Below are positions 16,801-19,800 of a stretch of 64,000 bases of DNA, one piece after another. Source of the DNA: Escherichia coli. Lineage in GTDB: Bacteria; Pseudomonadota; Gammaproteobacteria; Enterobacterales; Enterobacteriaceae. Position numbers: made by a program. Position 1 is the stretch's first letter, and each line of letters begins with the position of its first letter. The stretch lies in NCBI RefSeq assembly GCF_022846255.1, contig NZ_AP025682.1; one strand, 5' to 3'.

Positions 16801-19800
16801 GGGGTGGATATCCTCAAGGAGGGCGGGAATGCCGTTGATGCTGCCGTGGCGGTGGGCTACGCGCTGGCAGTAACGCATCCGCAGGCAGGGAATCTGGGCG
16901 GCGGTGGTTTTATGCTGATCCGCTCGAAAAATGGCAATACCACGGCTATCGATTTCCGCGAAATGGCACCCGCCAAAGCGACCCGCGATATGTTCCTCGA
17001 TGATCAGGGCAACCCGGACAGCAAAAAATCACTCACTTCGCATCTGGCTTCCGGCACACCCGGTACGGTAGCGGGTTTCTCGTTGGCGCTGGATAAATAC
17101 GGCACCATGCCGTTGAATAAAGTGGTGCAACCGGCGTTTAAACTGGCACGCGATGGTTTTATCGTTAACGACGCGCTGGCTGACGATCTCAAAACCTACG
17201 GCAGTGAAGTGCTGCCGAACCACGAAAACAGCAAAGCTATCTTCTGGAAAGAGGGCGAACCGCTGAAAAAGGGCGACAAGCTGGTGCAGGCGAACCTGGC
17301 AAAGAGCCTGGAGATGATTGCCGAAAACGGCCCGGATGAATTCTACAAAGGCACGATAGCGGAACAGATTGCCCAGGAGATGCAGAAAAACGGTGGCTTG
17401 ATCAGCAAAGAAGATTTAGCGGCATATAAAGCGGTCGAACGCACACCGATAAGCGGCGATTATCGCGGGTATCAGGTTTACTCCATGCCACCGCCATCTT
17501 CCGGCGGTATTCATATCGTACAAATCCTCAATATTCTGGAAAACTTCGATATGCAGAAGTACGGCTTTGGCAGCGCCGACGCGATGCAAATCATGGCAGA
17601 AGCTGAGAAATACGCCTATGCCGACCGCTCGGAATATCTTGGCGACCCGGATTTTGTCAAAGTACCGTGGCAGGCGCTGACCAATAAAGCCTATGCCAAA
17701 TCTATTGCCGATCAAATCGATATCAATAAAGCGAAGCCATCCAGCGAAATTCGTCCTGGCAAGCTTGCGCCTTATGAGAGTAATCAAACTACCCATTACT
17801 CAGTAGTGGATAAAGACGGTAACGCCGTGGCGGTGACCTATACGCTGAACACCACCTTCGGTACGGGCATTGTCGCGGGCGAGAGCGGTATTTTGCTCAA
17901 TAACCAGATGGATGATTTCTCCGCCAAACCAGGCGTACCGAACGTTTACGGGCTGGTGGGCGGCGATGCCAACGCCGTCGGGCCGAATAAACGCCCGCTG
18001 TCGTCGATGTCACCAACCATTGTGGTCAAGGATGGTAAAACCTGGCTGGTCACCGGAAGCCCAGGCGGTAGCCGGATTATCACCACTGTGCTGCAAATGG
18101 TGGTGAATAGCATCGATTATGGAATGAACGTCGCCGAAGCGACCAATGCGCCGCGTTTCCACCATCAGTGGTTGCCGGACGAGCTGCGTGTCGAAAAAGG
18201 GTTTAGCCCGGATACGATCAAGCTGCTGGAAGCAAAAGGTCAGAAAGTGGCGCTGAAAGAGGCGATGGGCAGTACACAAAGCATTATGGTTGGGCCGGAC
18301 GGTGAGCTGTACGGTGCATCCGACCCGCGCTCGGTGGATGATTTAACGGCGGGTTATTAATATCTTAAGCCCTCTCCCGGTAGGTGAGGGCTTAAATGAC
18401 AAACTGAGATTACAAATTCTCTATTTCACCCGCGCCATATAATACGCATCGACATATTCACCATTACGCAGCGCGTACTTCTTGCCAGTCCCTTCAATCT
18501 CAAAGCCAAATTTTTTATAGACCTTAATTGCTGGCGCGTTATCGACGAACACCGTTAGCTCAATACGATCTACCCGCAACCAGTTGTCGCACATTTCAAT
18601 CATCTCTCGCATCAGGGCGCTGGCGACGCCGCGGTTCTTCCAACGGGAGTCGACACAGATACCAAAATCGGCAACATGACTGCGGCGTGGGCGTTGTTGC
18701 ACGTCAATGGTGAGATGGCCTACGACGATTCCATCAATACAGGCGACTAACTGCTTGATGCCAGGGCGAGCGGTGAGTCGTTCCAGCCACATTTGTTCTG
18801 AAGGATGAGGCACCTGTAGCGTGTTGTAATACACCTCCGGCTGGGCGTGAATCTGCCTGATGGCCTCGTGATCGCGTGTTTCTGCGTGGCGTATTACTAT
18901 CTCACTCATTCCTTTGTCCTCTTTGGGGTAAATGTCCCTTTCAACATCATTGACTTTCAAATGCGAGTCAAATGCATTTTTTTGCAAAAAGTGTTGGACA
19001 AGTGCGAATGAGAATGATTATTATTGTCTCGCGATCAGGAAGACCCTCGCGGAGAACCTGAAAGCACGACATTGCTCACATTGCTTCCAGTATTACTTAG
19101 CCAGCCGGGTGCTGGCTTTTTTTTTGATCTTTCGTTCTCAATTTATCCTCGGGAAGTGCTTGTGTTCGTTATGCGCACTCCAGTAGGAACCACGTCCGCT
19201 TTGCGCTAAGGTGTAAATAACCACCTTAAAAAGGACGAAATCATGGTCATTAACTGCGCCTTTATTGGCTTCGGCAAAAGCACCACCCGTTACCATCTGC
19301 CGTATGTACTTAACCGCAAGGATAGCTGGCATGTCGCGCATATCTTTCGCCGCCATGCGAAGCCGGAAGAACAGGCCCCCATTTATTCCCATATCCATTT
19401 CACCAGCGATCTCGACGAAGTGCTAAACGATCCCGATGTTAAGCTGGTTGTCGTCTGCACCCACGCGGACAGCCACTTCGAGTACGCGAAGCGCGCGCTG
19501 GAAGCCGGGAAAAATGTGCTGGTCGAAAAACCGTTCACTCCGACAATTGCGCAGGCGAAAGAGCTGTTTGCACTGGCGAAAAGCAAAGGGCTGATCGTTA
19601 CGCCGTATCAGAATCGTCGCTTTGATTCCTGCTTCCTGACAGCGAAAAAAGCGATTGAAAGCGGCAAGCTGGGAGAGATTGTCGAAGTGGAAAGCCATTT
19701 TGACTATTACCGCCCGGTGGCAGAAACCAAACCGGGGCTACCGCAGGATGGCGCGTTCTATGGCCTTGGTGTGCATACGATGGACCAGATTATTTCTCTG

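What the first reader, a model, noticed from the sequence alone, without database searches (positions are those of the whole stretch)
18361..18420. ggt and yhhY are separated by only about 60 bp: the K-12 yhhZ-yrhA-IS1-yrhB segment is absent
From memory of the K-12 map, ggt is separated from yhhY by yrhB, an IS1 copy, yrhA and yhhZ (an Hcp/Rhs-associated remnant). Seen in sequence: the ggt stop at 18360 and the yhhY stop at 18421 are separated only by a short hairpin. This marks the strain as non-K-12 and shows the region is a hotspot of presence/absence variation. GGT here is also 3 aa shorter near the signal peptide than the K-12 form I recall, by loss of an APP repeat.
Basis: partly seen in the sequence, partly recalled or inferred. 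Interest (0 to 1): 0.3.

Follow-up and report, generated by a model that had tools for sequence, protein, structure and literature searches.

The report
Ancestral empty ggt–yhhY junction site
In this E. coli strain ggt and yhhY meet tail to tail across a 60-bp hairpin spacer, the original unoccupied form of a site where K-12 and about 80% of E. coli carry low-GC toxin/immunity inserts; this is correct but ordinary strain variation.

Summary
It holds one hairpin (18365-18395). K-12 MG1655 has 3,454 bp here: yhhZ, yrhA::IS1E, yrhD and yrhB. Homology to K-12 stops at both stop codons, and no island DNA or protein is found anywhere in the window.

The refinement is that the short junction is the ancestral state, not a deletion.
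- The spacer aligns end to end with those of E. albertii, E. whittamii and Escherichia sp. E1V33.
- 38 of 41 Enterobacteriaceae loci have ggt and yhhY about 34-131 bp apart.

Among 5,426 complete E. coli genomes:
- short junction: 985 (18%)
- K-12-type island: 3,758 (69%)
- O157-type DUF4225 insert: 343 (6%)
- yrhB alone: 233 (4%)

The inserts are 32-34% GC against 52-54% for the two flanking genes. They encode an Hcp-HNH effector and an Imm35 immunity protein.

The short and island states each occur on both B2-like and K-12-like flanks, so homologous recombination has shuffled them.

GGT is 577 aa here, 580 aa in K-12 and 581 aa in the other Escherichia species. The loss lies in the Ala/Pro tail just after the signal peptide.

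This is ordinary, already-annotated strain variation.

The parts
16627..18360 (+). ggt, gamma-glutamyltranspeptidase proenzyme, 577 aa, stop TAA at 18358-18360
   Evidence: ORF list. 569/577 identical to K-12 GGT. Matches PDB E. coli GGT chains 2e0w, 2dbu_A and 2dbu_B; the small subunit starts at Thr388.
16699..16713 (+). Site of the in-frame length difference in GGT: AAPP|VSYG here, AAPPAPPVSYG in K-12, AAPPAPPPVSYG or AAPPAPSPVSYG in other Escherichia
   Evidence: Protein and DNA comparison of 17 ggt 5' ends. In PDB chain 2dbu_A the mature large subunit begins three residues before the aligned PAPPVSYG.
18361..18420 (.). 60-bp ggt-yhhY spacer, the unoccupied form of the insertion site
   Evidence: It aligns over its whole length with the spacers of SCU-111, ST131-type AZ159, 14EC033, E. 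albertii, Escherichia sp. E1V33 and E. coli E69. A contiguous junction is present in 985 of 5,426 complete genomes.
18365..18395 (.). Hairpin TTAAGCCCTCTCC-CGGTA-GGTGAGGGCTTAA shared by the two convergent genes. There is no T-run on either strand.
   Evidence: Inverted repeat I1. Spacer alone folds at -19 kcal/mol. Not called as an intrinsic terminator, whereas the K-12 allele of the same hairpin followed by ATTTTGT is. No Rfam family matches.
18393..18420 (.). 28-bp right half of the spacer (TAAATGAC...AAATTCT). This is the stretch replaced by the island in K-12-type genomes.
   Evidence: The GPEC1209 spacer is the K-12-type hairpin plus this 28-bp tail. K-12 has the same hairpin followed by the island.
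18421..18909 (-). yhhY, GNAT N-acetyltransferase, 162 aa, stop TAG at 18421-18423
   Evidence: Pfam Acetyltransf_1, E 5.6e-18. The stop and last codon (CTATTT on the + strand) track the short state; island genomes have TTACTT.

Best explanation
The 60-bp spacer is the ancestral, unoccupied form of the convergent ggt/yhhY junction. It holds one GC-rich hairpin that probably serves both transcripts as a 3'-end structure, either a weak terminator or a stabiliser. In most E. coli the 28 bp between that hairpin and the yhhY stop codon has been replaced by low-GC foreign cassettes. K-12 carries a type VI secretion Hcp-HNH effector gene (yhhZ), its presumed immunity gene (yrhA, later split by IS1), yrhD, and the Imm35 immunity gene yrhB. 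Other strains carry yrhB alone or a DUF4225 gene. Nothing at the site suggests a site-specific integration mechanism. The alternative states are passed between lineages by homologous recombination through ggt and yhhY. Shown here: the anatomy, the absence of the island, the outgroup state, the frequencies, the GC contrast and the four-gamete pattern. Inferred: the role of the hairpin, the route of island entry, and whether this lineage kept the empty site vertically or regained it.
For: 1. Outgroups. E. albertii, E. whittamii, Escherichia sp. E1V33 and E. coli E69 have spacers of 60-70 bp that align with the window's spacer from stop to stop. 38 of 41 loci with both genes have spacers of about 34-131 bp, each with a GC-rich palindrome; these include Citrobacter, Enterobacter, Klebsiella, Pluralibacter, Yokenella and Lelliottia.
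2. Foreign inserts. They are 32-34% GC, against 54% for ggt and 52% for yhhY. They encode T6SS_HCP plus weak HNH, Imm35 and DUF4225. YhhZ is classed as an Hcp1-family His-Me finger toxin (PMC5714182), and Hcp-ET1 HNH-DNase effectors are described in PMC6730261.
3. Insertion point. GPEC1209 has the K-12-type hairpin followed by the window-type 28-bp tail. This shows that the two hairpins are alleles of one another and places the island between the hairpin and the yhhY stop.
4. Recombination. The window (short) and ChlosBP-23-1 (island) differ at 4 of 1,500 bp in ggt and 1 of 486 bp in yhhY. EC9 (short) and K-12 (island) differ at 8 of 1,500 bp in ggt. The two backgrounds differ from each other at about 65 of 1,500.
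5. Age of the island. The ChlosBP island is 96.4% identical to the K-12 island, similar to the divergence of the flanks (95-96%), so the island is old in both backgrounds.
Against: The hairpin has no T-run on either strand, so it is not a canonical intrinsic terminator, and no transcript data were available. The counts come from junction-spanning BLAST coverage, not from a per-genome typing with a phylogeny. About 107 genomes (2%) are unclassified. E. fergusonii and Salmonella were not among the loci recovered. Because B2-like flanks carry both states, vertical retention in this particular lineage is not shown.
Confidence: 0.85

Rival explanations
1. The window's lineage descends from an island-bearing B2 ancestor and regained the empty site by allelic replacement. 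Homologous recombination with an empty-site donor, with crossovers in ggt and yhhY, removed the island.
For: The flanks are nearly identical to island-bearing ChlosBP-23-1 up to the junction. The B2 strain UTI89 carries the same island allele at 99.6% identity. The yhhY stop and last codon (TAG/AAA against TAA/AAG) travel with the state rather than with the background.
Against: The reverse direction, an island imported into an empty-site B2 ancestor, fits the same data. No donor-type SNP tract is visible next to the spacer in the window. This rival still accepts that the spacer itself is ancestral sequence.
Confidence: 0.35
2. The short junction arose by a new deletion of the K-12-type island in this lineage.
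For: The island is the majority state in E. coli at 69%. Partially deleted forms exist, for example STB20-1, which covers 34% of the island and has an IS1.
Against: The 60 bp are not island sequence. The best local alignments to the K-12, O157 and yrhB-only inserts are 9-25 aligned columns long, no better than chance. The spacer instead aligns fully with the spacers of other Escherichia species. A deletion cannot recreate that sequence.
Confidence: 0.03
3. The junction is an assembly artefact, a collapse or mis-join across a repeat.
For: None.
Against: The same contiguous junction occurs in 985 complete genomes and in other species. The spacer is single-copy.
Confidence: 0.01

Closest known systems
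K-12 MG1655 ggt-yhhY region (b3441-b3447: yhhY, yhhZ, yrhA::IS1E, yrhD, yrhB, ggt)
   Same: Same flanking genes in the same convergent orientation, and the same wider gene order ugpQ-yhhA-ggt ... yhhY-ryhB-yhhX-yhhW-gntRKU.
   Different: The window has 60 bp where K-12 has 3,454 bp. The flanks are only 95-97% identical. The hairpin allele differs, and in K-12 it is followed by a T-run supplied by the island.
Empty-site alleles in other E. coli (SCU-111, Ecol_AZ159, 14EC033, EC9) and in E. albertii, E. whittamii and Escherichia sp. E1V33
   Same: Spacer of 58-70 bp with the same hairpin core GCCCTC...GAGGGC and the same AAATTCT end next to the yhhY stop.
   Different: The window has three private substitutions in the tail (CTGAGATTAC against CGTAGATTGC or CTTAGATTGC). 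The best junction identity in the collection is 97.9%. In E. albertii the centre of the hairpin is inverted.
Orphan Hcp-ET (Hcp with C-terminal toxin) effector/immunity modules of type VI secretion (Ma et al. 2017, as reviewed in PMC6730261)
   Same: This describes what occupies the site in other strains: Hcp fused to an HNH nuclease, followed by immunity genes, low GC, and located away from a T6SS cluster.
   Different: The window has none of it.
Intrinsic bidirectional terminators between convergent genes
   Same: A single GC-rich stem-loop between two stop codons, conserved in position across the family.
   Different: There is no U-tract on either strand in the window-type allele.

Membership tests
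K-12-type yhhZ-yrhA-yrhD-yrhB island | Island DNA or its proteins present between ggt and yhhY, or elsewhere in the window | tested here: not met
   blastn of the K-12, O157 and yrhB-only inserts against the window found nothing at E<=1e-3. tblastn of YhhZ, YrhA, YrhD, YrhB and DUF4225 gave a best E of 0.16.
Ancestral empty ggt/yhhY junction | Spacer orthologous to that of outgroup species over its full length | tested here: met
   MAFFT alignment of 11 Escherichia spacers with their flanks. Short spacers in 38 of 41 enterobacterial loci.
Genomic-island insertion hotspot | Several unrelated inserts between the same two core genes in different strains | tested here: met
   Short 985, K-12-type 3,758, DUF4225 type 343 and yrhB-only 233 of 5,426 genomes. 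Franconibacter has an ABC-transporter operon at the same site.
Genomic-island insertion hotspot | Compositionally foreign inserts | tested here: met
   32-34% GC against 52-54% in the flanking genes.
Integrase-mediated island (tRNA/att type) | Integrase gene, tRNA target or flanking direct repeats | tested here: not met
   No integrase is annotated in any form. No repeats are shared between the insert ends and the spacer. No tRNA adjoins the site in the annotation.
Rho-independent terminator | GC-rich stem-loop | tested here: met
   13-nt arms, 92% complementary; z = -3.2.
Rho-independent terminator | Run of T immediately 3' of the stem | tested here: not met
   The consensus scan does not call it on either strand. 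The K-12 allele followed by ATTTTGT is called.
REP/BIME or other repetitive extragenic palindrome | Many copies per genome, or a curated RNA/repeat family | tested here: not met
   One copy in 64 kb. The junction query has a median of 1 place per genome. No Rfam match. Spacers in other genera do contain what I recognise, from memory only, as REP-like and CCCTCTCCC...GGGAGAGGG palindromes.
Gamma-glutamyltranspeptidase (E. coli GGT) | Full-length match to solved E. coli GGT, with the autoprocessing Thr at the start of the small subunit | tested here: met
   2e0w_A at 1227 bits. 2dbu_B aligns from query residue 388 (TTHYSV).

The most novel reading that the evidence does not exclude
The empty and occupied states may form an old polymorphism that has persisted since before the split of the B2-like and K-12-like backgrounds. 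Recombination has eroded linkage down to the last 4 bp of yhhY. Next to the site, yhhY shows allele classes as divergent as, or more divergent than, separate Escherichia species: 7% between the window and K-12, and about 18% for the 14EC033/GPEC1209 class. This would fit long-term frequency-dependent selection on a toxin/immunity cassette rather than neutral gain and loss.
Probability: 0.25. Interest if true: 0.35.

Novelty: already known. Interest (0 to 1): 0.12.

Why it matters
It matters little beyond strain typing. It shows that the K-12 yhhZ-yrhB segment is an acquired, low-GC type VI effector/immunity relic and not part of the core genome. The short junction is the original architecture of the locus. 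The window comes from a non-K-12 strain, probably phylogroup B2. The locus could serve as a small worked example of how homologous recombination swaps toxin/immunity cassettes between core genes.

Tried and rejected
- Looked for remnants of the K-12, O157 or yrhB-only inserts in the 60-bp spacer by local alignment. Only 9-25-column chance-level matches appeared, apart from the hairpin core.
- Looked for target-site duplications or repeats at the insert ends. None were found.
- Tested the hairpin as an intrinsic terminator. It is not called.
- Tested it as a known RNA family. No match.
- Tested it as a repeated element. It is single-copy.
- Considered an 'AATGACA' heptamer shared by the spacer tail and the K-12 island's right end as a homology anchor. 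Rejected as too short to distinguish from chance.
- Searched the literature for a description of the ggt/yhhY junction polymorphism. Nothing specific was found. One paper lists yhhZ-yrhAB as a predicted genomic island but assigns it a methionine-to-cysteine role that the Pfam results do not support.
- The original Hcp-ET paper is not in the library.
- I could not polarise, within B2, which state replaced which.

Full report
**What is in the sequence**

On the + strand, the ggt ORF ends with TAA at 18358-18360. Its K-12-equivalent start, MIKPTFL, is the ATG at 16627, giving 577 aa. On the - strand, yhhY ends at 18421 with stop TAG at 18421-18423. Its K-12-equivalent start, MSEIVIR, is at 18909, giving 162 aa.

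The two stop codons are separated by exactly 60 bp: TATCTTAAGCCCTCTCCCGGTAGGTGAGGGCTTAAATGACAAACTGAGATTACAAATTCT.
- The only structure in it is an inverted repeat with 13-nt arms (18365-18377 and 18383-18395), 92% complementary, with 5 nt between them.
- An 80-nt stretch around it folds at -23.6 kcal/mol on either strand, z about -3.2.
- Its core GCCCTC...GAGGGC occurs once in the 64 kb, against 0.04 expected.
- It has no run of T on either side, so a consensus scan does not call it a terminator.
- No Rfam family matches it. The only Rfam match in 16000-21500 is RyhB at 19060-19124.

**Comparison with K-12**

The MG1655 record is annotated yhhY, yhhZ, yrhA (a pseudogene split by IS1E carrying insA6/insB6), yrhD, yrhB, ggt. 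There are 3,454 bp between the yhhY and ggt stop codons.
- blastn homology between the window and K-12 runs up to 18360 (95.0%) and resumes at 18422 (96.1%). Nothing in between matches.
- No island DNA or island protein is detectable anywhere in the window.

**What the K-12 segment is**

Pfam gives the following:
- YhhZ: T6SS_HCP (E 1.6e-11) plus a sub-threshold HNH match.
- YrhB: Imm35 (E 4e-23).
- The O157-type insert: a DUF4225 protein.

YhhZ is classed as an Hcp1-family His-Me finger nuclease in PMC5714182. Hcp proteins with C-terminal HNH-DNase toxins (Hcp-ET1) are described as type VI antibacterial effectors in PMC6730261.

The inserts are 32-34% GC, against 54% for ggt and 52% for yhhY. 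The K-12 segment is therefore an acquired effector/immunity cassette. I saw no evidence of an Rhs connection.

**Frequencies in E. coli**

Junction-spanning searches of 5,426 complete genomes gave:

| State between ggt and yhhY | Genomes | Share |
|---|---|---|
| Contiguous short junction | 985 | 18% |
| IS-free K-12-type island, at least 80% covered | 3,758 | 69% |
| O157-type 1,855-bp insert with DUF4225 | 343 | 6% |
| yrhB directly next to yhhY | 233 | 4% |
| Unclassified | about 107 | 2% |

In the rows listed, IS1 in yrhA appears in MG1655, DH5a and WF5-5-T2 (a strain of unstated origin) and in no other listed strain.

**Polarity**

A scan of one genome per species with YhhY recovered 45 loci. 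In 41 of them both genes could be placed.
- The spacer is about 34-131 bp in 38 of the 41. These include E. albertii (62 bp), E. whittamii (70 bp), Escherichia sp. E1V33 (60 bp), Citrobacter, Enterobacter, Klebsiella, Pluralibacter, Yokenella and Lelliottia.
- The exceptions are Franconibacter (2.9 kb, an ABC-transporter operon) and two loci with spacers of 231 and 369 bp.
- The Escherichia spacers align with the window's from stop codon to stop codon.

The short junction is therefore the ancestral architecture, and the inserts are derived.

One E. coli strain, GPEC1209, has an empty site made of the K-12-type hairpin (GGTTAGCGGCCCTCTTCGTGGGAAGAGGGCT) followed by the window-type 28-bp tail. 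This shows two things:
- The two hairpins are alleles of one structure.
- The K-12 island sits between the hairpin and the yhhY stop, replacing window positions 18393-18420.

In K-12 the first bases of the island (ATTTTGT) give the hairpin a T-run. There the scan does call it a terminator for ggt.

**How the states move**

There is no integrase, tRNA or terminal repeat. The flanks show recombination instead.

| Comparison | ggt, last 1,500 bp | yhhY, 486 bp |
|---|---|---|
| Window (short) vs ChlosBP-23-1 (island) | 4 differences | 1 difference |
| EC9 (short) vs K-12 (island) | 8 differences | 17 differences |
| B2-like vs K-12-like background | about 65 differences | about 35 differences |

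Both states thus occur on both backgrounds, a four-gamete pattern.
- Only the yhhY stop and last codon follow the state: CTATTT with the window-type short spacer, TTACTT with the islands.
- The B2-type and K-12-type island alleles are 96.4% identical, about as divergent as the flanks.

Both states therefore look old. I cannot say whether this lineage kept the empty site vertically or regained it by allelic replacement.

**Identity of the strain**

The closest complete genomes over 12 kb of the window are 99.5-99.6% identical. They include strains I know as phylogroup B2 commensals or uropathogens, such as M1/5 and NGF-1. The phylogroup assignment rests on my own knowledge, not on a test here.

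**GGT length**

The window has AAPPVSYG where K-12 has AAPPAPPVSYG. Other Escherichia species and Citrobacter have AAPPAPPPVSYG or AAPPAPSPVSYG, in a 581-aa protein.
- At the DNA level the window lacks 12 bp relative to the O157 haplotype that shares its signal peptide. The deletion lies between two CCTG repeats.
- The change lies in the first residues of the mature large subunit. PDB chain 2dbu_A starts three residues before PAPPVSYG.
- The small subunit begins normally at Thr388.
- Length is not linked to the island state: 577 aa occurs with short, island and yrhB-only junctions, and 580 and 581 aa also occur with short junctions.

**Verdict**

The finding is correct and its interpretation is supported. 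One substantive correction applies: the short junction is the original state, not a loss. All components are already annotated in public genomes, so this is ordinary strain-to-strain variation.

Noticed in passing
L009 (E. albertii) spacer versus window 18365-18395: The centre of the hairpin is inverted between species. The window has TCCCGGTAGGT and E. albertii has TCGCCTACCGGGA, which contains the reverse complement (CCTACCGGGA). The stem and flanks stay in place. This looks like a template-switch loop inversion.
   Followed up: partly
L051 (14EC033) and L053 (GPEC1209), yhhY; compare window 18421-18909: A third yhhY allele class exists within E. coli. It is only about 82% identical to every other Escherichia yhhY, including those of other species, and about 76% identical to the nearest other genus. 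Window and K-12 yhhY differ by 7%, as much as between Escherichia species.
   Followed up: partly
window 24334-27635: Two ORFs lie between gntU and yhgN: 699 aa annotated elsewhere as a RecQ-family helicase, and 431 aa annotated as DprA. K-12 has only 56 bp there. This is a presence/absence difference in the opposite direction.
   Followed up: partly
window 21099-21190 (yhhW-gntR spacer): K-12, RUT3575 and O157 have a 223-bp spacer here. The window, ChlosBP-23-1 and SCU-111 have 92 bp. The extra ~131 bp in K-12 was not identified.
   Followed up: no
window 19060-19124 (+): RyhB sRNA (Rfam RF00057, 83 bits), with its terminator at 19099-19117. This confirms the K-12-like layout yhhY-ryhB-yhhX.
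   Followed up: yes
L005 (SCU-111) ggt, about 1.4-2.0 kb upstream of the ggt stop: SCU-111 ggt is a mosaic. Its last ~1.4 kb is window-like (0-1 differences per 200 bp). Differences then jump to 13-18 per 200 bp, and its N-terminus is of the K-12-like SAAAAPP type (AAAAPPPPPVSYG). This indicates a recombination breakpoint inside ggt.
   Followed up: partly
NZ_AP022088.1 (183.8-kb plasmid of WP4-S18-ESBL-07), 4189-4365: A 178-bp fragment matching the 3' end of ggt (window 18184-18361) at 90.4% identity lies on a plasmid, under a 'hypothetical protein' (H40).
   Followed up: no
L032 (Franconibacter pulveris) 8490-11350: A three-gene ABC-transporter operon is inserted at the same ggt/yhhY junction: an ATPase, a permease and a lipoprotein. 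By eye it looks metNIQ-like. The site therefore accepts inserts in other genera too.
   Followed up: partly
L011 and L035: Two contigs are labelled 'Flavihumibacter MAG' and 'Chryseobacterium sp.' but carry enterobacterial genes. L011 has yhhX-yhhY-yhhZ with a yhhY 100% identical to K-12's. L035 has yhhX, yhhY, ggt and yhhA. These are probably contamination or mis-binning in public assemblies.
   Followed up: no
window 30000-42000: Only 787 of 5,426 genomes cover at least 80% of this 12-kb glg-region query in one place. Something in it is also variable.
   Followed up: no
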